Positions 2,795 through 62,899 of a DNA stretch of 64,000 nucleotides are shown piece after piece (positions within the stretch are counted from its first letter, which is position 1; every line of letters starts with the position of its first letter). Made by a program: the position numbers and the translations under genes. This DNA comes from the human T2T-CHM13v2.0 reference genome, Homo sapiens, in contig CP068257.2 of assembly GCA_009914755.4 (NCBI GenBank), positions 2,880,001 to 2,944,000 on the forward strand. Direction: 5' to 3'. The notes beneath the pieces were generated by a model. The model searched no databases. It was not told where the DNA came from and worked only from the letters and a program-made list of their open reading frames with translations.

Positions 2795-3076
2795 GCTGTG
2801 GTGCCTCGCACCTGTAATTTCAACACTTTGGGAGGATGAGGCAGGTGGATTATTTGAGGTCAGGAGTTCAAAACCAGCCTGGCGAACCTGGTGAAAATCC
2901 GTCTCTACTAAACTTACAAAAAAATTAGCGGGGAATGGTGGCCCAAGCCTGTAGCCCCAGCTACTCAGGAGGCTGAGACAGAAGAATTGCTGAAACTTGG
3001 GAGGCGGAGGTTGCAGTGAGCCGAGATTGCACGACTGCACTCCAGACTGGGTGACAGAGTGAGTCTCTGTAAAAAA
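2795..3076 (+). mobile_element. Alu SINE (arm A copy).
   Basis: Dimeric Alu consensus motifs (ggtcagctgtggtgcctcgcacctgtaat...gcactccagactgggtgacagagtgag) followed by a poly-A tail. Confidence 0.9.
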
Positions 3077-3118
3077 AAAAAAAAAAGAGAGAGAGAGAGA
3101 GAGGGAGAGAGAGAGTGC
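3077..3118 (+). repeat. Poly-A tail followed by a (GA)n microsatellite.
   Basis: aaaaaaaaaaaaaaaagagagagagagagagggagagagagag. Confidence 0.85.
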
Positions 3119-3129
3119 TCTTCATGGAA

Positions 3130-4900: not shown

Positions 4901-6247
4901 AAGTATTTGTCTGCATCCTGTTTCCTCATTTTGAAAACTAGTCTAGATGAAACCTATACTTGTTCTAGGGAGTTGGCATAGACAGCATTTATTTCCATTC
5001 TCAGCAGTGATGCCAGCCAGAAAGAGGGAGTTCCCCATTTTCACTTTGGTTAGACAGGACTCTGGATGGTTGAAGGGGAAAAGTTTCAGACTCTAAGGGA
5101 GCCAAATAGGATATTACAAAGATTTATGCATTTACTCCGGGAGCAATTAATGTGTTAAATTTTGTGCAAAACACTGCGCAAAGAGCAATTAAAGTGAAAA
5201 TTATTAAGGCATTACCTTTACCTTGGGAAACTCACACTAGTCAGATTCTCCGAACCCCAGAACTTAACAACAACCTAGTAAAATCTTGTTCAGAGTGAAG
5301 AGAGGGTGGGATCAGGAAGGTAAGTTTAAAAATTAGGCTGGGTGAATGAGATAATTACCCCTAGTAATGCATTGGAAGTATGGATGGCTTTGGGATGGGT
5401 GAAGACAAAAGAATCTCAGCAGAGGGTGCAGATAAAAAAGGGCAGAAACACAGGAGGCTTATGCAGAAAGAGGAATGAGTTTGCTGGACTGGGGAGAGTG
5501 ACAGTAAAAAGCAGAGGATAATAGGCCTCTGTGGTCATCTAGGGACTATAGGATGGATTAGTTGGGGGTTACAAAATCAGTGAGGTACTTTTTAACAGTA
5601 GGATGGATAAAGAAGAGCTATATTTTGGAATAATTATGTAGCAATGGTGGTTAGGAGCAATAGAAACTCAAAGTATTACATAAATATGTTTTTTTCTTAT
5701 TCTCCCACACAAGCCTTTCGCCTTCCCTCTTAAACTGAGAACGGAGTGGTTTGCTATGATGTTTTTAAATTCTCACAGACAAGCATTACTCTGTGCTGCC
5801 TTTTAATAAAGGCTAATTTTAACCAAATTAAAGAAGATTGAATGGATTTTCTTGCTTATAATGGTTGAGTACAACATCTCTTACCTTCTACTAGTTTTCA
5901 GTATAACTGAAGTAACAGAATGTCAATACTCCATGGAGGGGTGTTCCTATTGCTAAGGCTCCCTCCTCTGGGCTAGGCCTTCTACACCATGGCTGTCCTG
6001 CTGTGGCTGGAGCTGGAATTTGGATTGACCTCTGTGTGTCTTCCTAGCACACAACAGGTGTCCAATTAGCATGGGCAGAATCAAGCTCCTCCCTCTCACC
6101 ATTTATTTCTCCATTTGTCCCTTGTTGGGAATGGAGAGTCCTGCCACTGAGTTCAGCCCAGGGTTGAAGTTCAAATCTCAGCTGATACTTGGTGGATGTT
6201 GACTTTTTTGAGAAGAACTTGGGAGAATAAAACATTATAAAGGCGCT

Positions 6248-6545
6248 GGCCAGGCACGGTGTCTCATGCCTGTATTCCTGGCATATTGATTGGCTGAGGA
6301 GATAGAATTGCTTGAGGCCAGGAATTTGATACCAGCCTTGTCAACATAGTGAGACCCCATTTATACAAAAAACTTGAAGCATTAAAAACATTTAGCCAGG
6401 TGTGATAGTTCCAAACTGTTGTCTCAGCTATGCTGGACATTGAGGCAGAGGATCACTTGAGCCAGGAGTTCTAGGCTACAGGGAGCTATGATCGTGCTGC
6501 TGCATTCCAACCAGGGCAACTATGCAAGATGTTTCAAAAATAAAA
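6248..6545 (+). mobile_element. Old Alu (AluJ-like), arm A copy.
   Basis: ggccaggcacggtgtctcatgcctgtattcc...gagccaggagttctaggctacagggagctatgatcgtgctgctgcattccaaccagggcaac. Confidence 0.85.
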
Positions 6546-7439
6546 TCTTTTATTATTCTTCACCCCTATAGTCTCTCCAGAACTTGTGCACTATGTAGCA
6601 GAAAGAATCAAACTCCCCAAGAGTTTGGTTCTTGCTTATGATTCGGTTTTCTGCTGCTTGGCTGCCCCGTCATGTCCCCATTTTGTATAAATAAGAACCC
6701 CCAGGTGAAGTGGAGTTTCTCCCCAGCAGAGGGTCTCACCAAGGCCCCAGGACTGGCACTTTAGGTGGAGGCTTGCTTTTCAACCTCTGAATAATAATTG
6801 ATACTAAAATTGAGAAGTTTTCCAGACACCAGCTTCCTGAAAGGAGCACTCAGTCGAGACAAGATGAGGTCAGTAGCGAAGGTGACTCAGGCTGAGTGGG
6901 CCGTACATTCCTCTACTTTTCCCAAACTTCCCTCTGACATCCTCCAAACTTTCTGTCTTCCCAGGACTTTCTTGCCAGGGAGTCTAGTGAAGTAAAAGCT
7001 TTAAAATTGCTTTGATTTTAAAAATAATTTTATTGGTTCTTAAAATGTACTGTTAAATATTACTGTTTTTCTTCCCCCAGGGGCTACGTGAACATAAGCT
7101 CATTTTTCACACTAGCAGCATTTAGAAATGTCTCTTCTGGAGGAACACTGATGCTCTCAAATCACACGTGGTAATTCTCTCCTCCAGGCACAAAATGCAG
7201 TCTCAGCATCTCTGTATCAGGAGTCACTGTCTAAGAGTCTCTCCAGAGAAATAAGCTACCCAGGCCATCCAGCTGCTGGTGAGTTGCTTTGTGGTCATGA
7301 ACTGGGTAGATTTCCTCATCTCTTGCTCATTGGCCACATTCAGGATTAATGATTCAATGCTTTTGTTGTTCCAGAAGCTGTGGTCAGTGGCTATGCAGGA
7401 ATCAGTCTTTCAGTGCTGATCTTTGCTGAGAAAATAATA

Positions 7440-12864: not shown

Positions 12865-13539
12865 TTAGTTAGGAATCAAATAAGATAATTAAATGTAAAC
12901 TTACACTTAATTTACTTTTTAAGCATTTTAAGAATTGGTATTCTAATTTTGTGTCGGTACATTTTAAGAATCAATAAAATTATTTTTAAAATCAAAGCAA
13001 TTTTAAAGCTTTTACTTCTTTAGACTCCCTGGCAAGAAAGCCCTGGGAAGATAGAAAGTTTGGAGGATGTCAGAGGGAAGTTTGGGAAAAGTAGAGGAAT
13101 ATATGGAGGGCAGAAGGAGTGAACATTAGGGAAACCCTCCCCTAGCTCAGTCTTCAGATACGCTGGTGGACTTCCCCATTCAGCCTGAGTCACCTTCGCT
13201 ACTGACCTCATCTTGTCTTCTGACTGGATGCTCCTTTCAGGAAGCTGGTGTCTGGAAAACTTCTCAATTTTAGTATCAATTATTATTCAGAGGCTGAAAG
13301 GCAAGCCTCCACCTAAAGTGCCAGTCTTGGGGCCTTGGTGAGACCCTCTGCTGGGGAGAAACTCCACTTCACTGGGGGGTTCTTATTTTATACAAAATGG
13401 GGACATGACGGGGCAGCCAAGCAGCAGAAAACCAAATCATGAGCAAGAACCAAACTCTTGGGGAGTTTGATTCTTTCTGCTACATAGTGCACAAGTTCTG
13501 GAGAGACTATAGGGGTGAAGAATAATAAAAGATTTTATT

Positions 13540-13832
13540 TTTGAATCATCTTGCGTGGTTGCCTGTTTGGAGTGCAGTAGCGTGATCATAGTTCACCGCA
13601 GCCTAGAACTCCTGGCTCAAGTGATCCTCTGCCTCAATATCCAGCATAGCTGAGACAACAGTTTGGAACTATCACACCTGGCTAAATGTTTTTAATGCTT
13701 CAAGTTTTTTGTATAAATGGGGTCTCACTATGTTGACAAGGCTGGTATCAAATTCCTGCCCTCAAGCAATTCTATCTCCTCAGCCAATCAATATGCCAGG
13801 AATACAGGCATGAGACACCGTGCCTGGCCAGC
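13540..13832 (-). mobile_element. Alu (arm B mirror of 6248-6545).
   Basis: Reverse-complement Alu motifs (gttgcctgtttggagtgcagtagcgtgatcatagttcaccgcagcctagaactcctggctcaagtgatcc...). Confidence 0.85.
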
Positions 13833-15184
13833 GCCTTTATAATGTTTTATTCTCCCAAGTTCTTCTCAAAAAAGTCAACATCCACCAAGTATCAGCTGAG
13901 ATTTGAACTTCAACCCTGGGCTGAACTCAGTGGCAGGACTCTCCATTCCCAACAAGGGACAAATGGAGAAATAAATGGTGAGAGGGAGGAGCTTGATTCT
14001 GCCCATGCTAATTGGACACCTATTGTGTGCTAGGAAGACACACAGAGGTCAATCCAAATTCCAGCTCCAGCCACAGCAGGACAGCCATGGTGTAGAAGGC
14101 CAAGCCCAGAGGAGGGAGCCTTAGCAAGCGGAGCACCCCTCCATGGAGTATTGACACTCTGTTATTTCAGTTATACTGAAAACTAATAGAAGGTATGAGA
14201 TATTGCACTCAACCATTATGAGCAAGAAAATCCATTCAATCTTCTTTAATTTGGTTAAAACTAACCTTTACTAAAAGGCAGCAAAGAATAATGCTTGTCT
14301 ATGAGAATTTAAAAACATCATAGCAAACCACTCCGTTCTCAGTTTAAGAGGAAAGGCAAAACGCTTGTGTGGGAGAATAAGAAAAAAAATATTTATGTAA
14401 TACTTTGAGTTTCTATTGCTCCTAACCACCATTGCTACATAATTATTCCAAATTATAGCTCTTATTTACCCATCCTACTGTTAAAAAGTACCTCACTGAT
14501 TCTGTAACCCCCAACTAATCCACCCTATAGTCCCTAGATGACCAGAGATGCCTATTATCCTCTGCTTTTTACTGTCACTCTCCCCAGTCCAGCAAACTCA
14601 TTCCTCTTCCTGCATAAGCCTCCTGTGTTTCTGCCTTTTTTTATCTGCACCCTCTGCTGAGATTCTTTTGTCTTCACCCATCCCAAAGCCATCCATACTT
14701 CCACTGCTTGACTAGGGGTAATTATCTCATTCACCCAGCCTAATTTTTAACCTTACCTTCCTGCTCCCACCCTCTCTTCACTCTGAACAAGATTTTACTA
14801 GGTTGTTGTTATGTTCTGGGGTTCGGAGAATCTGACTAGTGTGAGTTTCCCAAGGTAAAGGTAATGCCTTAATAATTTTCACTTTAATTGCTGTTTGCGC
14901 AGTGTTTTGCACAAAATTTAACACAATAATTGCTCCCAGAGTAAATGTATAAATCTTTGCAATGTCTGATTTGACTCCCTTAGAGTTTGGATCTTTTCCC
15001 CTACAACCATCCAGAGTCCTGTCTAACCAAAGTGAAAATGCGGAACTCCCTCTTTCTGGCTGGCATCACTGCTGAGAACGGAAATAAATGCTGTCTATGC
15101 CAACTCCCTAGAACAAGTATAGGTTTCATCTAGACTAGTTTTCAAAATGAGGAAACAGGATGCAGACAAATACTTTATTCCCAC

Positions 15185-16955
15185 TTTTTGGCCTGGGGTT
15201 TATTAACAAGGTGAAATTATACAGAAGAATAAATTAGTTTAGCTGAAAAAAGAAAAAATGTATAGTTAATGGAGGGAAAAAATTGAAAATGCAATAAAAC
15301 CAGAAGATGTTCAGGAATTCAAAGTTGTTGATGCATAGAAATACTACTGGTTTTTGTACATTGGTTTTGTGTCCTAAAACTTTACTTGCTTATCCATTTC
15401 AGGAGGCTTTTCAAGTTTTCTCCAAAAGGAGTTTTGGAAAGACTTTAGCATTGTCTACGTAGTGACTCATAATGCAAATGGAGAAAGAGAATTCAATTTT
15501 TTTTTCTATTTGTATGCCTTTTTCTTTTCTATTGGCTGATTGCTGTGGATAGGACTTTTAAATCTAATTAAATTGTATTTGTTAGATTTTTGTATATTTT
15601 AATATGTCTCCAATTAATTTTATATCTGTATAATGTCCCCTTATAAAGGAATATGTAGCTGTTTTATTTAGTTATTTTATTACTGATGCACATTTGAGTT
15701 TTTTTCAGTTTGGAAAAGTACCAAATAATGCTGCTTAGAGCATTTGTCTGCATTGGAAAATATGCTGGCAATTCTATTGGGTGTATATACCTAGTAGCAG
15801 AGTTGCTTGGTCCTAGAGTGTGCTTATGTACATCGTGTATGTAAGGAGTTACTACTCAAGAGGTTTTGAATGCCGTTATAACAGTTTGCACACAGAATGG
15901 TATAAGAAAGTTCCAGTTGCTTGACATCATCACTAGTACTTAATTTTGTCAGTTTTCAAAAATGTGAATGATTGCATAGTGGTATTCAATTGTAGTTTTC
16001 ATATGCATTGTTCTGATGCATAAGGATGTGGATATGTTCATCTACTTGTTGGCCCTTCGGTTCTGTATGTGGAAATCCTAGTCACATGTTTGCCAATTTT
16101 GTTCAATGTATTGCATCTTTGTTTATTAATTGATGGGATTTAGTTAAATAAACTAGATAAAAGGCTTTTGCCACATCAATATATGACAAATGTTGATTTC
16201 CACTTTGTTCTTGCCTTTCATCTCTCCTGAAGCTTTTTTTTTATGAAGAGAAGGTTTTAATTCTAATAAAGTCCAATTTGTCATATTTTTGTCTTGAGAA
16301 TTAATGCATTTTGTGTCCCAAGAAATCTGGGCCTGTGCCAGTCATGGACATATTTATCTATGTTATCTACTAGAAATATTGTTTTCAGCTTTGACCTTAA
16401 AATTTAAAATCCACTTTTCATTGGAATTTGTTAATAATATAAGATAGGAGTGTTTTTTCTCACATAAATAACTGGTTGACTCAAGGCTATTTACCGAGAA
16501 GACTGTCTTCACTCCTCTTCTGTGCCTGTTTTGTAATATACAAAATGTCCAAATGTGTGAGTCTGAGTTGGACTCTCGAGTTTTTCTAGTTTTCTTTGTG
16601 CCTATTTTTGCATTACTACCATAGATAGCTTTTATTACTATAGCTTTAATCTAAGTCTGAATATATGTCATTTTAAGCTCACAAACTTTGTTATTCTTCA
16701 GGACAGTTTTTACATTTCTTCGATTTTTTATATGTATTTAAATTTTTTAAACTGATTAGACAGTTTCCACAAGATTTCTGCCAAAATATTGTATTGTGAA
16801 AATGGAAATCTATGAATCAATTTAGGGAGAAGTTACATAGAAACAAAGCAAAACAAAACACTAATAACATCCAAAACAAACTTAAAGAGAACACCACAAT
16901 AAGAAAAGAAATTCCCAAATTGGAATAAATATTTACAACTCATGAAATTACAAAT
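15185..16955 (-). mobile_element. Old L1 fragment (arm B mirror of 3130-4900).
   Basis: Reverse complement of the arm A L1 segment. Confidence 0.5.
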
Positions 16956-16991
16956 GGGCTCGCATTTCCATAAAGGGCACTCTCTCTCTCC

Positions 16992-17296
16992 CTCTCTCTC
17001 TCTTTTTTTTTTTTTCCACAGAGACTCACTCTGTCACCCTGTCTTGAGTGCAGACGTGCAATCTCGGCTCACTGCAACCTCTGCCTCCCAAGTTTCAGCA
17101 ATTCTTCTGTCTCAGCCTCCTGAGTAGCTGGGGCTACAGGCTTGTGCCACCATTCCCGGCTAATTTTTTGTAATTTTAGTAGAGACGGGGTTTCACCAGG
17201 TTGGCCAGGCTGGTTTTTAACTCCTGACCTCAAATGATCCGCCCGCCTCAGCCTCTCAAGTGTTGAAATTACAGATGTGAGGCACCACAGCTGACC
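16992..17296 (-). mobile_element. Alu (arm B mirror of 2795-3076), with a flanking (CT)n run and poly-T.
   Basis: ctctctctccctctctctctcttttttttttttttccacagagactcactctgtcaccc...ggctcactgcaacctctgcctccc... Confidence 0.9.
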
Positions 17297-18002
17297 TGTA
17301 AAGACCTCTTAAAAATTAGTTAAAAAACAAACAAAACAGAAAAAGAGAAAGAAGAAACAGCCACTCAGTTAAAAGAAAAAGATAAAGAAAAAGAAAAAGA
17401 AAAGAAAAGAAAAAAAGGCAAAAGACATTATTTTACAGGTCTAGTGCCCTGTGCCCCTCACTGTAATGGGGGTGGATATGGGCTTCACAGGACATGAAAT
17501 TCATCAAACAGTTGCTGGTTGAAGGAGGGAAAATCTTGCGGGACCAGCCTCCAGAACAGAGCCTGTGGTGCACTGTTTCATCCCGTAGCCCTGGTAAGAA
17601 AACCTGGCTGTGCCGTGCTTTATGTTCACCTGCATTTGCCCTGTTCAGAGGCCTGAGCTACCGTGAACACATAAGTCTGCTCAAACTCTCCCCATCCCAA
17701 TATTCTATCTGGTATTGAGCATGACACCCTGTCTTCACTGAGCATGTGTTTATGCAGTTTTGTGACCACCTATCCATTTTACAACAGGAAGACTGAGGCC
17801 CCCAAAAAAGGCAAAGACTGGTCCATATCCCAGAAATTGGGAAGAGCACAGAGTATTAGGGAGGGATCCAGCTTCCAAGGCCTTGCATGCACCCCACCCA
17901 TCAGGTTTGCTTTGGAAATGAGTGCTCCTAAGTCCTGGAAAACCCTGTGGTCTACTTTCTACCTGGGCTTTCTACCCTTTCTTATTCTCACATAGGTGTG
18001 CA

Positions 18003-18050
18003 GCCATGAACACACAAACACACCACACACACACACACACACAGGCTTCT
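18003..18050 (+). repeat. (CA)n microsatellite.
   Basis: cacacaaacacaccacacacacacacacacacacagg. The arm A counterpart at 2040-2100 is a degenerate (TG)n. Confidence 0.85.
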
Positions 18051-19989
18051 AAGGTGGAGATCATGGAGGTGAGGTTAGAGAAGAGGAAACCAGAGAAGTG
18101 ACAAAACGGGAAGAAATAGAAGAGGCAGCTTTGCCATGAGGCAGAGGCATCCACTCCCCCAGCTACATGACCAGGAGCTGACAGCATGCGATGAAGGATC
18201 CTCCAGGTTCCCTGGGTTCTTCCAGGCCTGGGGATCTTCCCAGCTGTTTCAAGAGGACAGGACAGGGGTTGTGACTCCCACCTCTATGGGCACCTGGAAC
18301 TAAAATGAGCTATGCCCTCCCCCAACCACCCCATGTGATATAAAGTGGGGCTACGGGAAAGAAAACCTTCGTTTTCTCTCTCATAAATAGGGGTACTCAA
18401 AAGGAATAATACCAAGAATTCTAGATACTCATAAGTGTCTGCTCCCCTTGGCTCTTCATTGGTAACTCACTGTGCTTTGAGACTCTGGGAAGAGGCTTTT
18501 CAGGTTCTAGAGGTCCTTCAGAGAAGAGAGAGGCCTAGAGATGTGGGCAGATGAGGACTTGGAATAAAGCAGAATGTGACAATGCACTGGGCTCTGGAGT
18601 GTGGGGCCCAGAAAAAATACTAGTTTTTTGGGCTGTCCTTGAGTTCCTCATTCAGAAGTGGAAGAAAATAATGTCTCTGAATGCTGTTAAAATGTTTAAT
18701 GAGTGCACAGCACACTCAAAGAGGCTGAGGAAAATAGGAATCAAGGGAGGTTTCCGAGGTTACTTTTATGGCCCTTGGAGTCTTCAGATACTGCTCCTTT
18801 TCCCAGGGGTCCTTGATTAGCCACTGCCTTGAGAATTCCCCAATGCAGGTGCCTGTTTTGTGATGCTTCCACCTGGGACTTCAGGGCTAGTGGAGGCCTC
18901 TAGGTGGCGGCAGACCCCGTGTTTCTTATGCCCGCTGGACTTTACTGGAGTAGCTGGAGCTAGGGGGGAGAGTCAGCCTGAGGTCCTGCAGCTCCTGTTA
19001 TCATTCATGATCTCCACATTATTGGGTGGCCAAAAGCGGGCAGAAGGGCTTTGTGATTTTCCATGTTATTTTACTCAGCGACTCTTCCCCTAGCACTCAC
19101 CATGTGGCAGCTACCTTGGTAGGTTCACCTTGTGGTACCAAAAATGATTATGTTATCCCTGCCTCCCGGCGGGAGCCCACGGTCTGAGGACTGCAGGACA
19201 AAAACACTAAAGCAAGTACATGTGAAAGAAAAGAGCATTTTATAATGGAAATAAAGTAGAATGTTGGGAGGGAGGGCTGGGGAGAGGTTGCCTGGAGGGG
19301 ACATGAATGCCTCCCTGAGGTGACATTATGTTGTGACCAGAATGACAACAGAGAGCCAGTCCTGCGCAGGTGTGGAAAGTGTGTCAGGGAAAAGCCACTC
19401 TTTGTGAAGAGACTCACAGGCACAGGTGAGTTCAGCAGAGGAGGTTATAACGGGACAATTGTGGCGGCAGGCAGCCTGAGAAAGAAAGGAAAAGAGGGGA
19501 GGGAGGATCCTGGGGACTGAAAGAAGAGATTAGTCATTTGCCCCTCTCTGACAAAATTTCCCTGAATTTTAGCACATGTTGACAACAAATACTATCTCAC
19601 AACTTTTGTGAACCAGAATCTCGATATAGCTTAGTTGGGTGCCTCTGCCTCAAGGTCTCTTACGAGGCTGGGGCTGTGATTTCAACTGAAGCTGGATTTG
19701 AGGAGAGATCAGCCTTCTATCTGCCTCATGGAAACTGGCACGATTCAGTGTGAACTGAGAGCCCGAGTTCCTTCCTCTCGATTGGCCTGGGCATCTCCTC
19801 AGTTCTCTATCATGTGGGTCTGTGCCTAGAGCATCTTAGGACACTGTAGATCACTTCCTCATCTTGAGGATTACAATACAGAGATGGAAAATGAAAGAGA
19901 TAGACAGACATATGCAGAGAAAAAGAGAGAAAGGGAGACAGAGAGATTGAGAGAGGACGCACAGGACAGAGCAAGTAAGAGGAAAATAA

Positions 19990-20400
19990 TAGCTGTTTTA
20001 GAAATATAAATTTGGAAGTTGCAGTAGACTATGTGATTCCCCACCATGTTCACATACCAGAACCTTAATCCCCAGTGTAATGGCCTTAGCAGGTCAGAGG
20101 TAATTAAGTCCAAAGCATGAGGACCTCATGATAGCGATTACGGGCTTTGTAAAAGAAACCGCAGAAGGTTGTCTCTCCCTCTCTCTGCTAAATGAGAAAA
20201 CAACCTGAAGTCTGGAGTTTGAAACTCAGAAGAGAGTCCTTACCAGACCCCAACCATGCTGGAAGCCCAATCTCAAATTTCTGGCCTCTAGAACTAATGT
20301 CTTTTATTTATAAGTTGCCTAGTCTATGTTTTTTGGTATAGAAGTCTGAACTAAGTCAGAAGTGATAACCTATCACATTTGTTGTTTTCCCTTTGACAGA
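19990..20400 (+). mobile_element. MaLR/MLT1-like LTR fragment that straddles the outer end of arm B. Its mirror copy is at window positions 1-110.
   Basis: Characteristic MaLR LTR end, ...ccagaaccttaatccccagtgtaatggccttagcagg...ctagaactaatgtcttttatttataagttgcctagtctatgttttttggtatagaagtctgaactaa. Confidence 0.4.
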
Positions 20401-24165: not shown

Positions 24166-24465
24166 CCAAGAGTGATCACTCATGCCTGTAATCCCAGCAC
24201 TCTGGGAGGCTGAGGCATGCAGGTTACTTGAGGCCATAAGTTCAAGACCAGCCTGGCCAACATGGTGAAACCCCAGCTTCATGAAAAATACAAAAATTAG
24301 CCAGGCGCGGTGGTGCACAACTTTAATGCCAGCTACTCAAGAGGCAGCAGCTGGAGAATTGCTTTAACCTGGGAGGTAGAGGTTGCAGTGATCCAAGATT
24401 GTGCCACTGCACTTTGGCAACAGGGTGAGAGTCTGTCAAAAGAAAAAAAAAAAAAAATGACACCC
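24166..24465 (+). mobile_element. Alu inserted into the L1 tail.
   Basis: ggccaagagtgatcactcatgcctgtaatcccagcactctgggaggctgagg...gcactttggcaacagggtgagagtctgtcaaaagaaaaaaaaaaaaaaa. Confidence 0.9.
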
Positions 24466-24479
24466 GAAGAGACAGAGTT

Positions 24480-25950
24480 ACAAAGTTTCTGAAAAATTAT
24501 CTTCAAATCGCATAAATCTTTCTTTCACACTAAGATAATATAAACAATAGATGTTGAAATTAAGACAATTTCCATGATTACTCACTTAGACAGAATAAAT
24601 TATTGGCCATCAAATAAGAAGAAAATATACAAGTCATAAACAAAATAGGGGCAATATTTATACAGGCAAACAAACAGTGAAATCATTATATTAACAAAAG
24701 ACATAGGGATGGTTCATATTTGACTTCTGCCCCACACTGTCTTAATGCATACAGAGTTGAATATTGTTATACAATATTATATTATACAAATTAAAACTTA
24801 AAACAATAAACTAATATAAGGTGCCCTACCCTAAAACATGAAACACAGAAATGTAAAATTGCAAAACAAAGTTAAAATAAACATTAACCCCCAAATTCTT
24901 ATTTGAATAATGAAATTCAAAATCATAATAAATAGGTAGAAAGTAAAAACACAATTAACTGATGTGAGACAGCCTACTCTAAAAAATACAGAAACATAAA
25001 ATTATAAAACATAATTAAGAGAAACTTTAATCCATAAAATCCTGAATAAACATAGTGTCCAAATGAAAAAGAATCCTAGGTAACTACAATTTTTAACTCT
25101 TCCTGTGAATCTATGAAAAGTATGAATTTTGAATTATTTGGATACAGTTAGGACAACAACATTTCAGAGAAAACACATTATAATTATTACAAAGAGCTGT
25201 GATGAGAAAGTTTTAAGGAATAAGCATTTAAGTAATACTAGAGAAAGTTTTAAATTATGCTACTGATGCATTGCTGCTTTTCTTACACAAAACGGTAAGG
25301 CTGTAATCTAGCTTTTAATTGAAAAGTATTACATTTCTAAATATGGTAACAATATAAATATTGTAAATATAGTATAAAACATTGACATATAAAATAAAAA
25401 TTGGAAATAAATTGTACTATTAGTCAAATAAAAGTTGGGAAAACTGGAAGAAGATGCTAATAGTAACATTGTGCCTAGAGTCAATTAAACATACAAGCCA
25501 AATATTTTAATAAATTATAAATTATATAATTTATACATAATATATACATTTGAGCATGCTATTTTACAACTTCTGAAAGGAAATTACAGACAAATGTGAC
25601 ATATGATAATTTAGAAAGTGAAAACACAGTCATAGTAATCTTCATATTAAAGAAGACAGAATCATAAAATACTAAGTGAGAAATAAGGTAATAATTGTGA
25701 ATTCAATATATGTTGAACAATATTCTAATTTCCCTTACGGAAAAAGTTTTTGTAAGAAATCAGTAGAATGAGTACATACAATAAACCATCCTACAGTAGA
25801 GGCTGTTGGCATATAGAGTTTACATTTCTATGATTAGGTCCTACTAAGAAAAAGGAAATTTTAAAATAAAATACTTAGATTTTCCTATTTAATAAGATAA
25901 TTTTTGCCTATAAAGTTTTTCTGTCTAATTTTCTTGTAGAATTAGGTTTT
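24480..25950 (-). mobile_element. AT-rich degenerate L1-derived sequence.
   Basis: Composition and scattered similarity to L1. No intact ORF. Confidence 0.3.
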
Positions 25951-26399
25951 AGTCGTCGTAAAACTTGACATTATGAAGCAGAAAACAGGTGTCATCTGTC
26001 TCTGGTGTTCCTGGAATTTCTAACCCAAATGCCAATTCCTCCACAACTCCCCTCACACACTTCTGAATTGAAGCACAACAGATTTATTAAAAATGGCATA
26101 ACAGCGGTCTCCAGACATGTGCAGAGATTTTCCCAGATCCCCAAAAGCAATGACAAACTATTCAGATCATTTAGGTTCTCACAAGATACTGGGAGGACTT
26201 TGGCTTTCAGTGTGAATGCACTGGAAGATTCTAAGAGAGAGGGAGAGAGAGAGAATGTGTGTGTGTTGAAATCAGAACCCCACCTTATGTGTTTATTGTG
26301 GAAATTGAAAATGAAAGCCTAAAGTTGAAAATTAAAATCACACATGATAGCACATTGCAAACTATTTTCTGTGCTAGATGGGTCGTTCTAGGGTGTAGG

Positions 26400-29300
26400 A
26401 CCCTGGAAACACCGTTTTCCCCTCCTTCCGGAAAGAGCTACTCACACTGCTCAAAGCCTACATTTACATGTACCATGTCGAAGACCAGCTCAAGAACCTG
26501 GACCCATATGCCACCTTCAGCAGGGTTGACTGCAGCTGCTTGTTCTTCCTGAGCATCTTCTCCAATGGTGACCTGAGAGTTGCGGGAGGCATTGGGGCCA
26601 GGATTGAACAGAGGAAAAAGGAGCACGGAGGCCAGGTGCTGAGGACCAGGCCATCTCACCTGGAGAGTTCTGGCCCTGAGACATCCAGACCAGCATGACG
26701 TTTAGGTGCAGACAGCTGGCCCTGGGTGGCCCTGTGCTGATCACCGGCCTCGGCCCCTCAAACAGTGAGAAATGGAAGAATGGCTTGGAAATGGGCACTG
26801 TCGACAGTGTGTCACCTGAGCACATTCTCCCAGGGGCCCAAGAGGGGCCATCGTGTCTCTAGAACCAGAACTGGAAGGTGAAACTGCCAGGGGGAACAAG
26901 GAAGAGGGTCCTCAGTTGGGTGGAGGGTCTCACAGCAAGACGCCTGGCTTAATCAAGCTTGGCCATTCCTGAAGCACGTTCAGTGACTAAAAGTGCCTAC
27001 CATGAGCAGCTGGAACACACTCTCTGAGAGCTGCAAGATGCATGGAGACCTCAAGTACCTGTTTGTAATTACAGCCAAGGACCAGCAGGCAGCATTACCG
27101 CATCCACATGGGCTTTTGCTGGAAACAGTAAGTCTCTGCCAGCCCCTCCCAGGCTCCTGGGATGCCACTTGTTCTGGGTCTGTGGACAGATAACCAGGAC
27201 ACTTACTCAGTGAAGCCCATCGTTCAACCCCAGCCCCACCATACCCTGTCTCCTAAGCCATTCCTCATCCCAGAAGGAAAGGCAATGCCTTTGTCCCACA
27301 GCCCCTGCCTTGTGTCATGTCATGTGGGGGTATGGAATGAACCCGTCAGCCTAAACTCCAGTCCTTCTGCCTGAGGAATCTGTCCCCGCTGTCTGAGTCG
27401 CCCTCTAGGGAGCTGTCAGTGGGATAGAGAGCAGCCCTGGAAGAGAGGCCCACCTTCTTCTGTTTGACTTCAGGACAGCCTTTCAGGGCAAGAACCCAGA
27501 GCAGATGGAGGCCTCACAGAAGCCTGTGGCAGGGCTCTGGGCTTCGTGGGCTAAGCATCTCCCTCTCTGATGACTGCCATGGGGCCCACAACCACTCATT
27601 CAAGAGGGTCACCACCACATTGCAGGTGTGCAGCTGGACGGTTCCCCAGGCAGAGCCTGCCATGGACTGCATGCACAGAGACGATGCACACCTTGAAGTT
27701 GGACAATGAGGAGAACATTCCTGAAGAGGTGCATGCAGCCTGGCCCTGCCCTCACTGGGAACCCCCTTCCATCTGGGTACTAGACAGAATTCTGTGCACT
27801 TTTCTGGAGGCTCCATGCTGGTCTGTTCATTTGGAAGTTTGATGCTGTCCGTGAGGAAGTAACAAAAGAGATATCTCAGAGCCGGTTGTTTGTCACAGGC
27901 TGAGCGATTTTCTCCCTCCCTAATCCCTCTGCAGACACGGGGCTGGAACAAGGACCTATGGATAATGAGGGAATTTCTCTTCGAGAACCTGCCTGAGCTG
28001 CTGCTTCAAGAAAGAGCCACATTAAAGGTGCCTATAGCCCCTGATGAGGGAATGGCAGCCTCAGGCCTGCCTGCCATCTGTGAGCAGGTTTTCTTGCTAA
28101 CAGGATGAAAGCAAAGAAAGCTGGAATGAGCCCAGCCCTCTCAGGCACCTTGAAGACCGTTGGGGTTCCTTCCAGCCCTTCTAGCCTTATGCTTTTTGGC
28201 AGGCCACTCAGGCACCTTTTTCCAGCCTCTGAGACTTCCATGCTCTGGAAGAAGAGGGTCCCACTTTTCACTAGGCTATGGGGCCAGGCCCATCCAGCTC
28301 CCGGCTGCCACTAACAACCATGGGGCTCTCACCTGGGCACACACTGCCCAAACATGGCCCTTCTAAGGCAGAAGATCATGTGTCTTGCAGTTTCAGCTTG
28401 CTAGGGCTTAAAAGTTATCAGTGCTGTTATTAAGATAGGGAAGTGAGAAAGGAAAACTTGCTGTAAAAGTTTCCCATAATCTTACCACGGAGATCATCAG
28501 CACAGATGACAGCACAGGCAGGGCTGCTGGGGAGGCTGAGGGAGAGTGTCCAGCCTGTTCTGCCAGCTGGTCCTTGCCAGGGGTGTCTCGTGACCCAGTC
28601 CCTTAGAGAAGCATGCAGATATCTCAGCAAGTATCTGGAAGGTGTAGATCAGGGCAACCCAGCACTACTGATGGTGGAGTGGGGCTACCTCCCATCAAGC
28701 TGTGTCTCCACAGCTGACCCTTGTAACCCGGAGGTGTTTTACAACATGTGCAAGGCAATGAGCCCCATCAGCTGTGTGGCATTCAACACTCACTTCAACT
28801 CGTACATCTCACCAGAAAGCAGTGGGGACTGACCAGTGCAGAAGCCTGCAAAGTAGATCAGAGCATCATGGGGTGGGGGATGTGGAGCCTGCCTGCTCAT
28901 CTGAGCACTTCTCCCTGAGGGTGTGATCTGCAGGATTCCTGAAGGAGGGCTGTGAGCTCATCAGGGAGGCCCTGAGCCTGTGGAACATGCCTGAGGCCAA
29001 GCCCATGGGGATTTGTGTCTACTTGCACCTCCTTGCTCATCTCAGTACACTACAGGTGACTGTGCCGAGGTGGGCCTTGAGCATCCCCTGGGCTGTGTCA
29101 GCAAAGGGCTCTGGGTCTGGCCTGGCATTGAGGGATGGCAAATAAGGGGCCTGGGGTTGCATTGTCACCCCCTATGGTAGCATAAAATGAGAGAGTCCAG
29201 ACCTGCAGGACTGGAACCCTAACAAAGGGGTTAGGAGACTGCTCACTTTCCCTCAGGGACCCATGTGGAGGAGCTGAGGGAGGTTAAGGAGACCCTAGGG

Positions 29301-29501
29301 ACTCACTTGTTCTGTCTGGGCTTCCCCCTGCTCCATCGTTTGATGACCATTTTTTGGGAAGAGCTCAGGAACCTCCTGTGCTCTAGTGAGACGGGGCCTC
29401 CCCTCACAGGGTATTCTGAGACTGTGAGTGAGAAGCTAACACAGTGCCTTGCAATACTCACGGGAGCTGTCATCCTCTGTGACCATCACGTGGCCTTGTA
29501 G
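26400..29501 (+). pseudogene. GC-rich unique block with successive protein-like plus-strand ORF fragments (for example 26468-26698, 27890-28108, 28506-28832, 29265-29501). A candidate degenerate retrocopy or exon cluster of an unidentified gene.
   Basis: The region is repeat-free for about 4 kb. The ORF fragments show varied, protein-like composition, for example ...NLPELLLQERATLKVPIAPDEGMAASGLPAICEQVF... and ...KETLGTHLFCLGFPLLHRLMTIFWEELRNLL.... The minus strand also carries long ORFs, which is expected in GC-rich DNA, so evidence for coding is weak. I do not recognise a parent gene. Confidence 0.25.
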
Positions 29502-30569
29502 TGTTCAGACTGCCTGGCCTGCCTGGGGTTTGGTGAGGCTGTTTTGTGGTCAGCTGCTTTAGAAGCTCACTTTCTCTGCAATCAAACAGTGACTGTTTTC
29601 ATGTCTGTTTATGGGTTTAAAAAATCCTAATATTTCCTTTATAGTAGTTCACCTTGTATGTGTTTATTTGTATAAATTTTATTAGAGTAAAGAGAGCTTA
29701 AGACAATAGCATTTTAAGGTCTTAATGGGGCATAGACTTTCATGTCACAACAGCTAATGTTGACCTCCTTTTGCTGCCTTTGTGTAAATTACACATAAAA
29801 AGTGCAACCAGAGGTGACTAGAGCTGAGCTTCTTGGGCTTGCTTGCTGGCCTGCAGTCAGGTGGACTCTGGCTGTGAGGCAGTGCCCACCCTGGATCTAC
29901 ATCCCCCACTCTCTCTCCTTAGTCCCTGAGTAACCAACAAGGCCGTGCTAATGAGAGGGCGAGTGATGGGCATCGGGCACCCCAATACTATCCGGGAAGA
30001 TTTGAATGCCATCTGGGCTGGAGCTGTTGGGATTACGGGCTGTGGCTGTCTTGGCTTGTCATGGTGCCACCCACAGATGTGCCTGCCCTGTGCTGCTTCG
30101 CCAGGAGCCGGCTGCCCATGGCCCTGAGCCTGTCACACCATGCTTGCTACCTCATGCTGCTTGTGTTTGAAAAACCCATCCCGAGATGACGCTGCTGGAT
30201 GTAAGTCCTGAAAAGAGGGCATCACCTTTGTCCTGGGGGATTAGGAGCTGACCAGATTACTCTTGACTCCCTCCCAGAACAAGTGGGGCAGGTGCTGCAA
30301 TTAATGTTGCCCCCCAGAAGATGTGTTTGCACTGGCTGAGCAAATATACGATGCAGAGACCTAAATGAAGACACGTGAATGGGGTGTGTGGACATCAGTT
30401 AGTAGCTGGGAAACAGGTGCCTCTCAGGCCTCTCGTGCTCCAGCAAGTGTGGAATATGCCTGTGCCCATGAGTGTAGACATCTGGAGTGTATACATTTGG
30501 CTGCTGCTTTTGCTGCCACTATTCCCAGGCCCAACCTGGCTTAAAGTCCAGGTTTTAAGTAAAAAGTAG

Positions 30570-30690
30570 GAGGCTTTTTGCCACACAGCTACTTGAGAGG
30601 CTGAGGTGAAAGCATCACTGGAGCCTAAGAGATTGAGGCTGCAGTGACCCATGATTCAGCCACTGCACTGACACAGTGAGACCTGCGTGT
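30570..30690 (+). mobile_element. Alu right-arm fragment.
   Basis: gctacttgagaggctgaggtgaaagcatcactggagcctaagagattgaggctgcagtgacccatgattcagccactgcactg. Confidence 0.7.
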
Positions 30691-32454
30691 GCCTTTCTAC
30701 AGAGAATACCTCTGGGGCATTTGGGGATCCCTACAGTCCCGGACCCTCCCTGTCCCCTGCTGCCTGTGCTTCTTCCCTTGCCTGCTGTCAGAGCCTAACA
30801 TGGAGGAGGAGGTTGCCGCCCTGTGAGCCTGAGGGAGCTGTGTCTGACTGGAACTTCTGTCTGGGGTTTTGCGAAGACCTACTTATGAATATGGTCTGTC
30901 CAGATACCTTGTTTCAAAGGAAGTGAACATGAGCTAGCAAGTGTAGCCACCCCACAGCTGATAAACAACTTTGTCTTGTTTTTAAATCATCAATCTTCAT
31001 TTCACATTGGAATAAAGTAAGTGAAACCTGCTACCCCAGCCTCTCCCGTGTGTTCTGTAGCCCAGACTCATGTGGTTGTGTGGGCTGTTGTCAGAAATGT
31101 TATTAAAAGGTTATGCATAAATTAGATCAAATATAAAATTATGCTTATAATGTCACTTGATTGGGAGGTAAGAGGGTAGAGTCACAGGAAATCTGTTGGG
31201 GTTTACACCCCTGCTACTTACCAAGCTCATAAGAGTGTGGCACTGGTGACCATCACCTGACATTGGTGACAGAAGAGAAAAGGCCGAAGTGAAGGCCAGG
31301 TAGGAGAGAGGTGCCACGCTGTGGGGCCAGGCCCTGCGCATGCTGGGCCTGTTAGGTCACTGAACATCTAACTACCCGGGAACCAGCTCTTTTCACATCA
31401 TTTGAGGTAAGACGATGGGGGAGAACTCTCCAGAAGTCACACTGCGCTGGGAGAATGGAGGAGAGTCTACATCCCGCCTTCTTAGGGTAGGTTTTAGATT
31501 GAGCTGGACTGTCTTGGAGAGCTAATGAGATGGGAGGAAGACAGTCCCCCAGGTGCACCTGACAGCCAGAGCCTATGAAGTTAGGGGGGTTGTGTGGGGG
31601 TGGCCTGTCCCTATAAGAGGAGGAGCTTAAAGCTCTTAAAGCTGGTGGCTGCTGCTCTGCCATCCCTCTACAGAGCAGGCAAGTCCTCAGCTGCACGAAT
31701 ATCTGAATGTCTTTTGGAGTGTTAGAGTCCTCTGTGTCTTAGAAATTTTGAAAAGAAAAACAAATCTCAATTTTAATGTTGATTAGTTTCTCTGAGCCAA
31801 TTGGGAAAAAAAACGTCCTTCACCTCAAAGGTTTAAGTCACACCGAAGGGTAGCCAACAGTGTCTCGGCCACTGAAGCCTCATGCACGCTCTCACTACCA
31901 GTTTGATTTGCAGCCCCATAGTTGTGTTGTACTACATATTCTTTCCTCTGGCCTTGTCCAGTGAACACGGTTCACATGGCTAACACCACTTCTTGAGATG
32001 CGAGCACCATGCAAAGCTGAGAACGGATTGGGTTTTGTGACCATTGTGCCTCCTCCTCACCTGAGAGGCCCATTTTTCCTGGTTGATTCATTAAGTGTAT
32101 TAGTGCTGTCAGTCGCCTCTGGACAATTCCAATGACAAGTGGCTGTTGATTCATAAAGAAAATGAAGGCTTTAGATGTGACACCCTCGTTTTCTCTTGTC
32201 CTTCTCTTAGGTGAAAGATTTTATTTTTTTCAAAAGGCTACATACTGGTATCCTAGCAGGTGGAATGTGAGAACGGGCATTTGTTAGGCTATGGTATCAG
32301 TGTGGATGGGCAATTCTTCAAGATGGAAAACCAAGTCTCACTGAGTTGCTGGAGCCATAGTCACCTTTCTCCACATCCCCCACCATGGGCTTTCACTTTT
32401 CTCCTGTGCTTGAATTTTTTTCACATACAAATTGTTTATACACACACAAACACG

Positions 32455-34257: not shown

Positions 34258-34735
<478 letters not shown>

Positions 34736-62320: not shown

Positions 62321-62899
62321 AAGCCCTCAATCTTTCTTTTTCATCATGATAGTCTTTACTGTTTTATGTTTATGTAATGTAAAATTGACTACACAATTTT
62401 TACAAAGATTTTATGAAAATATTTTATTGAGAATGTACAAACCTGTCAGTCAATTAGAGGAGAAGTTACACTGTCGTAATAAATAGCCACAAAGCAAAAC
62501 CCCAAAAGACATCCAAATCAGAATAAAACAAAACATTTTAACAAAAACAAAAAGAACAAACTGGCAACAAATATGTGAAGTTTATATTACAAAGATGCTC
62601 ACTTATCCACTCTAAAGAGAGCTTTTAGAATTTGATTTAAAATATGGCAAAGACATTATCCCACACTTCACAGAAAAAATAAATTTAAGCAGCTGTTAAC
62701 ACATGAATGTATTATCAAGCTCAGATATAATCAAAATTAAATATTTGACAAGAGATTCTACAGTTTGGGAGAAATAGAAGTGTTTTTTTCTTTTCCCCAG
62801 GCCCACAAGTCTAGTTTCTTGCTCTTCTTCACTATAATGGGGTTTGTCATCAGCTCCCCAAAATATGGGAAGCACAGAGCAGGTGGTGGCTGAAGGTGG

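What the first reader, a model, noticed from the sequence alone, without database searches (positions are those of the whole stretch)
26400..29501. Repeat-free GC-rich block with a run of protein-like plus-strand ORF fragments
For about 4 kb there are no Alu or L1 elements. A chain of plus-strand ORFs has natural-looking composition and hydrophobic periodicity (for example WIMREFLFENLPELLLQERATLKVPIAPDEGMAASGLPAICEQVF, LMVEWGYLPSSCVSTADPCNPEVFYNMCKAMSPISCVAFNTHFNSYI, KETLGTHLFCLGFPLLHRLMTIFWEELRNLLCSSETGPPLTGYSETVSEKLTQCLAILTGAVILCDHHVAL*). The pattern is consistent with a decayed retrocopy of a large (possibly HEAT/ARM-repeat-like) protein or with clustered exons. I cannot name the parent. 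The minus strand also shows long ORFs, so the block may simply be GC-rich non-coding DNA.
Basis: inference. Interest (0 to 1): 0.5.

Follow-up and report, generated by a model that had tools for sequence, protein, structure and literature searches.

The report
Dead copy of the CLUH gene
The GC-rich block is a broken, intron-containing duplicate (pseudogene) of the mitochondrial-distribution gene CLUH, one of a known multi-copy primate family, and it also carries a degraded copy of the doubtful microRNA mir-1324; it is ordinary.

Summary
The block is real: it has GC 0.49-0.55, is free of Alu and L1, and contains the quoted peptides. ORF length is not the signal, because it is what chance gives and the minus strand does as well. 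The plus strand nevertheless holds about ten collinear relics of CLUH (KIAA0664, a ~1300-aa TPR protein) across 26432-30210. Genuine database CLUH sequences match them at E 1e-4 to 7e-12, and reversed controls match nothing. The spacers between relics have GT...AG borders at the same codons where a real CLU gene has introns and where CLUH cDNA is contiguous. It is therefore an unprocessed pseudogene, not a retrocopy, and it has no poly-A signal or tail. Exons for CLUH aa ~384-684 and ~723-991 are missing. In-frame stops, frameshifts and a neutral substitution pattern across six related copies show it is dead. The third (29265-29501) is a chance ORF inside an 853-nt intron. An Rfam mir-1324 hairpin (27720-27810) straddles an exon-intron junction, and this copy is degenerate. 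All of this fits the annotated human CLUHP pseudogene family, so it is already known and of low interest.

The parts
26432..30210 (+). Whole CLUH-derived unprocessed pseudogene fragment (CLUHP-type). Collinear relics of CLUH aa ~117 to ~1107 with two large internal gaps.
   Evidence: tblastn of genuine database CLU/CLUH sequences. Recalled human CLUH gives 11 collinear HSPs and its reversed control gives none.
26432..26611 (+). Exon relic, CLUH aa ~117-179 (KELLTLLKAYIYMYHVEDQLKNLDPYATFSRVDCSCLFFLSIFSNGDL vs [47 protein letters not shown]).
   Evidence: L008 ORF1 tblastn E 1.1e-9.
26761..26877 (+). Exon relic, CLUH aa ~167-210, with an in-frame stop and a 3-codon gap.
   Evidence: summed E 7e-12 with the next relic.
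26951..27127 (+). Exon relic, CLUH aa ~204-260 ([18 protein letters not shown] vs KMHGDLMYLFVITAEDRQ), with an in-frame stop and a frameshift. GTAAGT donor at 27128, the codon where real gene L051 has an intron (after FYLNQ).
   Evidence: sequence.
27220..27264 (+). Weak exon relic, CLUH aa ~265-281 (SFNPSPTIPCLLSHS vs NFNPKPANPSFLSHS).
   Evidence: significant only as part of the collinear group.
27593..27728 (+). Exon relic, CLUH aa ~306-351 (HSFKRVTTTLQVCSWTVPQAEPAMDC...EENIPEE vs [26 protein letters not shown]...EEHIPGQ).
   Evidence: L008 ORF1 E 4e-7. Donor GAG|GTGCAT at 27728/27729.
27729..27934 (+). Retained intron (206 nt), GT...CAG, at the IPGQ^TRDW codon boundary where real CLU genes L051 and L048 have an intron.
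27720..27810 (+). mir-1324-family hairpin, made of the last 9 nt of the exon relic plus the first 82 nt of the intron. The mature-arm equivalent lies in the intron. This copy is degenerate.
   Evidence: Rfam RF03247 97.7 bits (gathering 70), 6 mispairs. MFE -26.9 kcal/mol, z +0.32. 3 mismatches to mature miR-1324, including seed position 2.
27935..28030 (+). Exon relic of 96 nt, the same length as the 32-codon parental exon (TRGWNKDLWIMREFLFENLPELLLQERATLKV vs [32 protein letters not shown]).
   Evidence: L008 ORF1 E 3e-6. Exon limits match L051. GT at 28031.
28031..28694 (+). Intron or deletion remnant. The exons for CLUH aa ~384-684 (the whole Pfam CLU domain) are missing.
   Evidence: No relic found even with a lenient tblastn. 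In L051 aa 384-529 is a single exon. Pfam CLU domain at aa 356-576 of CLUH.
28695..28808 (+). Exon relic, CLUH aa ~685-722 (ADPCNPEVFYNMCKAMSPISCVAFNTHFN vs [29 protein letters not shown]). The following ~270 codons (eIF3_p135 domain) are missing.
   Evidence: L007 ORF1 E 1.4e-4.
28934..29069 (+). Exon relic, CLUH aa ~992-1041, start of the TPR region (GFLKEGCELIREALSLW vs GFLKEGCELINEALNLF), with a frameshift near its end.
   Evidence: P0037, P0028 and P0064 give E 3e-6 to 6e-7. L007 DNA 76% over 28930-29070.
29070..29922 (+). Retained intron (853 nt), GAG|GT...CCTTAG|, at a point where CLUH cDNA (L007) is contiguous.
   Evidence: L007 nt 1133-1277 and 1275-1360 abut.
29265..29501 (+).
   Evidence: An exhaustive HMMER search found only ORF calls on copies of this locus and spurious repeat proteins. 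Frameshifted by 14+2 bp in clade-B copies. Another copy has a 54-bp deletion that removes the stop.
29923..29998 (+). Exon relic, CLUH aa ~1042-1064 (KAVLMRGRVMGIGHPNTIRE vs [20 protein letters not shown]).
   Evidence: P0037 and P0064 give summed E 2e-10 and 9e-11. L007 DNA 83%.
29999..30076 (+). Retained short intron (78 nt). Donor mutated (GA); acceptor CACAG intact.
30077..30210 (+). Exon relic, CLUH aa ~1066-1107 (ALCCFARSRLPMALSLSHHACYLMLLVF...HPEMTLLD vs [39 protein letters not shown]), with an internal frameshift. No relics were detected beyond this point.

Best explanation
The block is an unprocessed (DNA-duplicated, intron-retaining), internally deleted pseudogene of CLUH/KIAA0664, and so a member of the CLUHP pseudogene family that travels with primate segmental duplications. 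It makes no protein. It lacks the 5' exons (aa 1-116), the CLU-domain exons, the eIF3_p135-domain exons and the 3' exons, and what remains carries stops and frameshifts and drifts neutrally. The long plus-strand ORFs are a mixture of decayed exon relics read through into introns and pure chance ORFs in GC-rich intron DNA. Its only candidate activity is as a source of RNA. The 5' end of one retained intron, together with 9 nt of the upstream exon, folds into the hairpin annotated in a sister copy as MIR1324. That miRNA is itself low-confidence, and the window's copy is weaker and has a changed seed. Shown here: homology, collinearity, intron retention, disablements, neutrality, multi-copy status and the Rfam hit. 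Inferred: origin by segmental duplication, and lack of function.
For: (1) Genuine CLU/CLUH sequences hit the plus strand collinearly. L008 ORF1, a 928-aa ORF carrying CLU_N, CLU and eIF3_p135, matches at 26432-26611 (E 1e-9), 26707-27097 (E 7e-12), 27593-27691 (E 4e-7) and 27923-28030 (E 3e-6). L007 ORF1 matches at 28695-28808 (E 1e-4). P0037, P0028, P0064 and P0034 match at 28933-29043 (E ~1e-6) and 29936-30200 (E 2e-10 to 9e-11). Reversed queries give nothing better than E 0.06. (2) Introns are retained. L007 cDNA nt 1133-1493 is contiguous but is split in the window by 853-nt and 78-nt spacers. The real gene L051 has introns after FYLNQ, IPGQ and IFKV, exactly where the window has GTAAGT (27128), GAG|GT (27729) and AAG|GT (28031). 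The relic 27935-28030 is 96 nt, equal to the parental 32-codon exon. (3) There is no poly-A signal or tail. (4) It is disabled: in-frame stops, relics in different frames, and two missing exon blocks. (5) It evolves neutrally. Identity to six related copies is the same in relics and spacers. Substitutions are even across codon positions, and 20 of 102 changed codons are synonymous against ~29% expected under neutrality. (6) It is multi-copy, with two clades 88-91% apart and copies 96-99.5% alike within each clade. (7) The literature agrees. The miR-1324 clone was annotated with host 'KIAA0664' at 3p12.3 (PMC2254388). MIR1324 lies in a >10-kb segmental duplication with at least 4 other copies (PMC7648123). 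Eleven annotated human CLUHP genes of ~8 exons, 80-90% identical, flank segmental duplications.
Against: No Pfam family is detectable in any frame. The deleted CLU and eIF3_p135 exons and the fragmentation explain this, but it means family membership rests on pairwise similarity alone. Residue numbering and some alignments use a human CLUH sequence recalled from memory that is not exactly in the database. It is, however, 81% and 92% identical to the real L008 and L007 ORFs and has all the CLUH Pfam domains. I had no mammalian CLUH genomic DNA, so direct intron-to-intron homology with the parent was not shown. No BSAT or LSAU satellite is present in this 64-kb window. The species and the specific CLUHP locus are unknown.
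Confidence: 0.92

Rival explanations
1. It is a processed pseudogene (retrocopy) of CLUH or of another large protein: an mRNA was reverse-transcribed and inserted, and later decayed.
For: The exon relics are tightly clustered (about 920 codons of parental span in 3.8 kb), which at first sight looks intron-poor.
Against: Spacers with GT...AG borders sit exactly at ancestral intron positions. The compaction is due to two large deletions of whole exon blocks. There is no AATAAA/ATTAAA within 1.2 kb downstream and no A-run of 8 or more anywhere in 26-31 kb.
Confidence: 0.02
2. It is merely GC-rich non-coding DNA whose ORFs are all chance, with no protein ancestry.
For: ORF lengths and counts are within chance, and the minus strand has equal or longer ORFs. 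No Pfam, PDB or large-database hit was found at first. There is no coding constraint.
Against: Ten or so collinear, same-strand matches to genuine CLUH sequences at E down to 7e-12, with clean reversed-sequence controls. Exon borders are conserved with a real CLU gene.
Confidence: 0.02
3. The relics are live exons of a functional truncated CLUH paralogue, or the 108-aa ORF at 28506-28832 (open in all six copies) encodes a young primate-specific protein.
For: That ORF's frame is open in the window and in all six related loci. F1 and F5 show nominal 3-base periodicity.
Against: The relics lie in different frames with in-frame stops. For the 108-aa ORF region (my F3), 0-4 of 12-25 changed codons are synonymous, which indicates no purifying selection. 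Only 29 of its residues derive from CLUH. The copies share ancestry, so openness in six copies amounts to only one or two independent observations.
Confidence: 0.02
4. Besides being a pseudogene, the locus works as a non-coding RNA gene: a spliced CLUHP lncRNA that hosts a processed miR-1324-like microRNA.
For: The Rfam mir-1324 match is above gathering score. CLUHP transcripts such as CLUHP3 and CLUHP4-201 are used in expression and annotation studies. AG/GT borders are preserved across the copies examined.
Against: miR-1324 was a single clone with a negative Northern blot. It has 48 reads, is absent from MirGeneDB and is undetectable in TCGA. The window's hairpin folds no better than shuffled sequence (z +0.32) and differs from the mature miRNA at 3 of 24 positions, including the seed. 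The hairpin diverges between copies as fast as its flanks.
Confidence: 0.08

Closest known systems
CLUHP pseudogene family (human CLUHP1-CLUHP11 plus unannotated copies)
   Same: Derived from CLUH, multi-exon with retained introns, and multi-copy. Divergence between copies here is 88-97%, against 80-90% reported. The copies are embedded in segmentally duplicated primate DNA, and a sister copy hosts MIR1324.
   Different: I could not assign the window to a named CLUHP locus or species. No BSAT, LSAU or D4Z4 array lies within the 64 kb. The window belongs to the clade that does not carry the canonical miR-1324 mature sequence.
CLUH / KIAA0664 (clustered mitochondria homolog; CLU1/TIF31 family), the parent gene
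   Same: Collinear order of exon relics from aa ~117 to ~1107. Intron positions are identical at five or more junctions. Residue identity within relics is 45-75%.
   Different: It lacks aa 1-116, ~384-684 (CLU domain), ~723-991 (eIF3_p135) and ~1108-1309. It has stops and frameshifts, no detectable Pfam domain and no selective constraint.
hsa-mir-1324 (Rfam RF03247)
   Same: A full-length match to the covariance model at 97.7 bits, above the gathering score of 70, on the same strand as the pseudogene.
   Different: It has six mispairs against 0-2 in clade-B copies, and scores 97.7 against 107-115 bits. MFE is -26.9 (z +0.32) against -33.2 (z -2.25). The mature-arm equivalent is CUAGACAGAAUUCUGUGCACUUUU against CCAGACAGAAUUCUAUGCACUUUC.
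Processed pseudogenes (retrocopies)
   Same: Both are a disabled, neutrally evolving copy of a protein-coding gene.
   Different: This copy retains introns, and it has no poly-A tail or signal.

Membership tests
CLU/CLUH (CLU1/TIF31) gene family, as a derivative | Significant, collinear sequence similarity to bona fide CLU proteins | tested here: met
   tblastn with database-derived sequences gives E 1e-4 to 7e-12, all on the same strand and in order. Reversed controls are negative.
CLU/CLUH (CLU1/TIF31) gene family, as a derivative | Pfam domain set CLU_N, CLU, eIF3_p135 and TPR_10/12 detectable | tested here: not met
   No Pfam hit in any of six frames at E<=1. The same library finds all these domains in CLUH itself. 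The CLU and eIF3_p135 exons are deleted. The block is therefore a relic, not a functional member.
CLU/CLUH (CLU1/TIF31) gene family, as a derivative | Intact reading frame under purifying selection | tested here: not met
   In-frame stops and frame changes. Synonymous fraction is 0.20 against 0.29 expected under neutrality, and substitutions are even across codon positions.
CLUHP unprocessed pseudogene family | Multi-exon structure with introns at parental positions | tested here: met
   Junctions after FYLNQ, IPGQ and IFKV match real gene L051. cDNA L007 is contiguous across the 853-nt and 78-nt spacers.
CLUHP unprocessed pseudogene family | Several paralogous copies of 80-97% identity in segmentally duplicated DNA | tested here: met
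   Six related loci fall into two clades. L006 is a mosaic of the two, which implies that both occur in one host. The literature agrees.
CLUHP unprocessed pseudogene family | Identity with a named, annotated CLUHP locus | not testable with these tools
   No primate genome or annotation was available to search.
CLUHP unprocessed pseudogene family | Adjacency to BSAT, LSAU or D4Z4-type satellite arrays | tested here: not met
   Tandem Repeats Finder finds no such array in the 64-kb window. This is a reported association rather than a strict requirement.
mir-1324 (Rfam RF03247) | Covariance-model score at or above the gathering threshold | tested here: met
   97.7 bits against 70, model positions 1-91.
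mir-1324 (Rfam RF03247) | Mature sequence and seed identical to hsa-miR-1324 | tested here: not met
   Three mismatches in 24 nt, including seed position 2. The mature sequence was verified from PMC7573169 and PMC2254388.
mir-1324 (Rfam RF03247) | Hairpin more stable than expected for its composition | tested here: not met
   z +0.32; 119 of 200 shuffles fold at least as well.
mir-1324 (Rfam RF03247) | Drosha/Dicer processing and expression | not testable with these tools
   No small-RNA data were available. The literature rates even the canonical locus as low confidence.
Processed pseudogene (retrocopy) | Absence of parental introns, and a 3' poly-A tract | tested here: not met
   Introns are retained. 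There is no poly-A signal or A-run.

The most novel reading that the evidence does not exclude
The CLUHP copies collectively form a young, primate-specific miRNA gene family born from a CLUH exon-intron junction. Diverged copies such as this one would then contribute seed-variant miR-1324 isoforms with their own targets. Alternatively, the 108-aa ORF that is open in all copies (28506-28832) is translated as a primate-specific microprotein.
Probability: 0.04. Interest if true: 0.35.

Novelty: already known. Interest (0 to 1): 0.12.

Why it matters
It matters little biologically. CLUHP pseudogenes are annotated, and the link between miR-1324 and 'KIAA0664' was printed in 2008. There are two small practical points. 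First, the MIR1324 hairpin can be explained as the last 9 nt of a CLUH exon relic plus the start of the following intron, present in many paralogous copies. This reinforces published warnings that its 'mutations' and reads are paralogue artefacts. Second, there is a methodological caution for this kind of scan. A heavily decayed, exon-deleted pseudogene escaped Pfam, PDB and a word-indexed 5.8-billion-protein search, and was caught only through a literature note followed by direct tblastn with the parent.

Tried and rejected
(1) Pfam on five ORF fragments and on all six whole-frame translations of 25.9-32.1 kb (plus strand) and ~25.9-29.7 kb (minus strand) gave nothing. In retrospect this was a false negative, because the surviving relics lie mostly between Pfam domains.

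(2) The search for homologous proteins with a 226-aa and a 1213-aa concatenation of ORF segments returned only short ORF calls on copies of the same locus, or nothing. The decayed relics share almost no exact 5-mers with CLUH, and short alignments cannot reach E<=1e-3 against 5.8e9 sequences. A haemoglobin control showed that primate proteins are in the collection.

(3) PDB sequence searches with the ORF concatenation and with recalled CLUH (aa 1-865) returned nothing, so no CLUH structure is deposited.

(4) An exhaustive HMMER search with the F5 segment found only copies of the same locus plus two tandem-repeat proteins with spurious summed scores.

(5) The decayed ERV or LTR-element idea was rejected: there is no flanking LTR pair and no retroviral domain.

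(6) The CpG-island idea was rejected: CpG observed/expected is 0.16.

(7) An exact look-up of my recalled CLUH sequence failed, so I relied on real sequences L007, L008, L051 and P0028-P0064 instead.

(8) The metagenome scan for mammalian CLUH genomic DNA found no mammalian contig, only more distant CLU genes. Those were still useful for intron positions.

(9) The tamarin locus L009 (P0117) proved to be a different CLUH-like pseudogene, not the orthologue of this block.
Full report
OBSERVATION. The block exists as described. GC is 0.49-0.55 between 26 and 31 kb, with flanks at 0.26-0.40. It is strongly CpG-depleted (observed/expected 0.16), so it is not a CpG island. Blastn of 25900-30585 against the rest of the window, which is rich in Alu and L1, finds nothing. 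The nearest Alu fragments are at 24229-24413 and 30586-30691. All quoted peptides are present. ORF content is not unusual, however. In 1000 dinucleotide-matched simulations the longest plus-strand stop-free run (121 codons) is below the simulated mean of 136 +/- 33. The count of runs of >=60 codons (15 against 11 +/- 2.4) is reached in 6.5% of simulations, and the minus strand has a 163-codon run. Against a null conditioned on being stop-free, 3-base periodicity is nominal only in F1, its overlapping frame and F5 (p 0.01-0.03 among 17 segments). An L1 reverse-transcriptase control in the same window is far stronger.

FIRST ROUND: EVERYTHING LOOKED NON-CODING. Pfam found nothing in the fragments or in any of the six full-frame translations. 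PDB sequences gave no hit at E<=10. A search of 5.8 billion proteins with a 226-aa concatenation returned only six unnamed ORFs of 132-151 aa from gut-metagenome assemblies, and a second search with all other segments of >=70 aa returned nothing. A haemoglobin control confirmed that human and other primate proteins are in that collection. The six ORFs come from host-DNA contigs (L001-L006) that align colinearly with the window over 26.2-34 kb.

The related contigs form two clades. The window, L003 and L004 are 96-98% alike. L001, L002 and L005 are 96-99.5% alike. The clades are 88-91% apart, and L006 is a mosaic of both. Identity is the same inside and between the ORF fragments. Substitutions are even over codon positions. 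Only 20 of 102 changed codons are synonymous, against ~29% expected under neutrality. The second fragment (F2) has a premature stop and the last (F5) a 14+2-bp frameshift in the other clade. There is no AATAAA/ATTAAA within 1.2 kb downstream and no A-run of 8 or more in 26-31 kb.

THE LEAD. Rfam placed a mir-1324 precursor at 27720-27810 on the plus strand (97.7 bits, gathering score 70). PMC7648123 reports that hsa-mir-1324 lies in a segmental duplication of >10 kb with at least four other copies more than 95% similar. It also reports that this is a low-confidence miRNA (48 reads, not in MirGeneDB, undetectable in TCGA). The original cloning paper, PMC2254388, lists the clone ccagacagaattctatgcactttc at 3p12.3 with one read, a negative Northern blot and the host note 'KIAA0664'. 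KIAA0664 is CLUH, a ~1300-aa TPR protein (my own knowledge).

VERIFICATION WITH REAL SEQUENCES. A CLUH TPR segment recalled from memory retrieved 270 proteins at E<=1e-20 (best 120 listed). Those that carry a name are called clustered mitochondria protein, TIF31 or CLU1, and the hits have TPR domains, some also eIF3_p135. tblastn of those database sequences against the window hits the plus strand at 28933-29043 (E ~1e-6) and at 29936-30007, 30085-30186 and 30177-30200 (summed E 2e-10 to 9e-11). Reversed queries give nothing better than E 0.06.

Contig L008 is a near-full-length vertebrate CLUH transcript whose 928-aa ORF carries CLU_N, CLU and eIF3_p135. That ORF hits 26432-26611 (E 1e-9), 26707-26877 with 26951-27097 (E 7e-12), 27593-27691 (E 4e-7) and 27923-28030 (E 3e-6). 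The L007 ORF hits 28695-28808 (E 1e-4).

My recalled 1309-aa human CLUH is not exactly in the database. It does have all the CLUH Pfam domains and is 81% and 92% identical to the L008 and L007 ORFs. It gives eleven collinear matches, aa 120 to 1107 over 26432 to 30200, and its reversed control gives none. A lenient search adds weak relics at 27091-27264 and finds nothing for aa 1-116, ~384-684, ~723-991 or 1108-1309. This explains the early false negatives. The Pfam CLU (aa 356-576) and eIF3_p135 (aa 767-948) domains fall in the missing stretches, and the surviving relics share almost no exact 5-mers with CLUH.

PROCESSED OR UNPROCESSED? At the DNA level, L007 cDNA nt 1133-1277, 1275-1360 and 1367-1493 are contiguous. 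In the window they map to 28930-29070, 29921-30004 and 30085-30210 (76-83% identity). The intervening 853 nt starts GAG|GT and ends CCTTAG|. The intervening 78 nt ends CACAG| and its donor is mutated.

A scan of metagenome contigs yielded real CLU genes with introns. L051, nearly identical to vertebrate CLUH in this region, has introns exactly after ...FYLNQ...EEHIPGQ and ...RAIFKV, and L048 shares the second of these. The window has GTAAGT at 27128, GAG|GTGCAT at 27728/27729 with the acceptor CTCTGCAG| ending at 27934, and AAG|GT at 28030/28031. The relic between the last two is 96 nt, exactly the 32-codon parental exon. The copy is therefore a DNA-level (unprocessed) duplicate that has since lost two blocks of exons.

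In the first example...FLFENLPELLLQERATLKV is the 96-nt exon relic, and the rest (PIAPDEG...) is read-through into the intron. In the second, ADPCNPEVFYNMCKAMSPISCVAFNTHFN is the aa ~685-722 relic. The third (29265-29501, ending ...HHVAL*) lies wholly within the 853-nt intron. An exhaustive HMMER search of 1.84 billion representatives with that segment found only ORF calls on other copies plus two tandem-repeat proteins with spurious summed scores. One of those copies has a 54-bp deletion that removes the stop.

THE HAIRPIN. The Rfam match begins 9 nt before the end of the ...IPEE exon relic and runs 82 nt into the 206-nt intron, so the mature-arm equivalent is intronic. Clade-B copies score higher (107-115 bits, 0-2 mispairs) and fold better (-33.2 kcal/mol, z -2.25). 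L002 and L005 carry the exact mature miR-1324 sequence. The window's copy scores 97.7 bits with six mispairs and folds at -26.9 kcal/mol (z +0.32). It reads CUAGACAGAAUUCUGUGCACUUUU, which has three mismatches, including seed position 2. Between clades the hairpin diverges as fast as its flanks.

COMPARISON WITH WHAT IS KNOWN. 'Clustered mitochondria homolog pseudogenes (CLUHP)' are an annotated family. There are eleven NCBI-annotated human genes plus further BLAT-detectable copies, each full-length copy having eight exons. Identity between the gibbon and human copies is 80-90%, and the copies flank segmental duplications and satellite arrays (bioRxiv 10.1101/2024.08.29.610280). CLUHP4 lies about 2.3 kb upstream of D4F104S1, next to the D4Z4 array on 4q35 (PMC12977661). 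The window's element meets the testable criteria: CLUH ancestry, retained introns, multi-copy status and divergence in the reported range. I could not name the exact locus or species, and no satellite array lies in these 64 kb.

VERDICT. This is an ordinary, already-described kind of element, and very probably an already-annotated CLUHP copy. The mechanism (retrocopy) and the best-looking ORF were wrong. Interest is low.

Noticed in passing
window 40455-42594, minus strand: Relics of a CTD-small-phosphatase-type (NIF/FCP1-like) gene. Pfam NIF PF03031 matches at E 5e-19 in two stretches (…DMDETLVHSSIKPISNADCVV… and …[34 protein letters not shown]…, followed by a C-terminal-like …SGAEGVYTSLGQ). 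About 1.4 kb separates the two main pieces, so this is probably another pseudogene.
   Followed up: partly
window 1-6900 and 13175-20110: A large inverted duplication (6966 aligned bp, 93.4% identity) with a ~6.3-kb spacer. A third partial copy of part of it seems to lie near 62700-63700.
   Followed up: partly
L006 (aligns to window 28159-29918): This contig is a mosaic. Its 5' part is 97% identical to the clade-B copies and its 3' part is 98% identical to the window's clade. That indicates either gene conversion between CLUHP paralogues or a chimeric assembly. Either way, both clades occur in one host sample.
   Followed up: partly
L009 10001-10575 (tamarin genome CM063182.1): A 156-aa 'hypothetical protein' annotated in Saguinus oedipus (P0117) is a decayed CLUH TPR-region ORF. 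It lies about 6 kb from a meprin-like gene (Astacin, MAM and MATH domains). It is a different CLUH pseudogene, mis-annotated as a protein, and not the orthologue of this block.
   Followed up: partly
window 60885-61844, minus strand: A 315-aa open fragment of an L1 ORF2 reverse transcriptase. I used it as a positive control for 3-base periodicity.
   Followed up: no
window 41455-41592: A 41-bp tandem repeat (3.4 copies, consensus AGCTAGACACAGAGTGCTGATTGGCATATTTACAAACCCTG) inside the GC-rich stretch at 41-43 kb that interrupts the NIF-like relics. From memory it resembles the repeats of LTR12-type LTRs, but I did not test this.
   Followed up: no
window 34577-34715: A long (AGA)n/(GAA)n microsatellite of 46 units, directly after an Alu tail.
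   Followed up: no
method (versus 54, 62): A heavily decayed, exon-deleted pseudogene gave false negatives in Pfam, PDB and the word-indexed search of the 5.8-billion-protein database. Direct tblastn with the parent against the 64-kb window gave E down to 7e-12. A negative from those tools should not be read as 'no protein ancestry'.
   Followed up: yes
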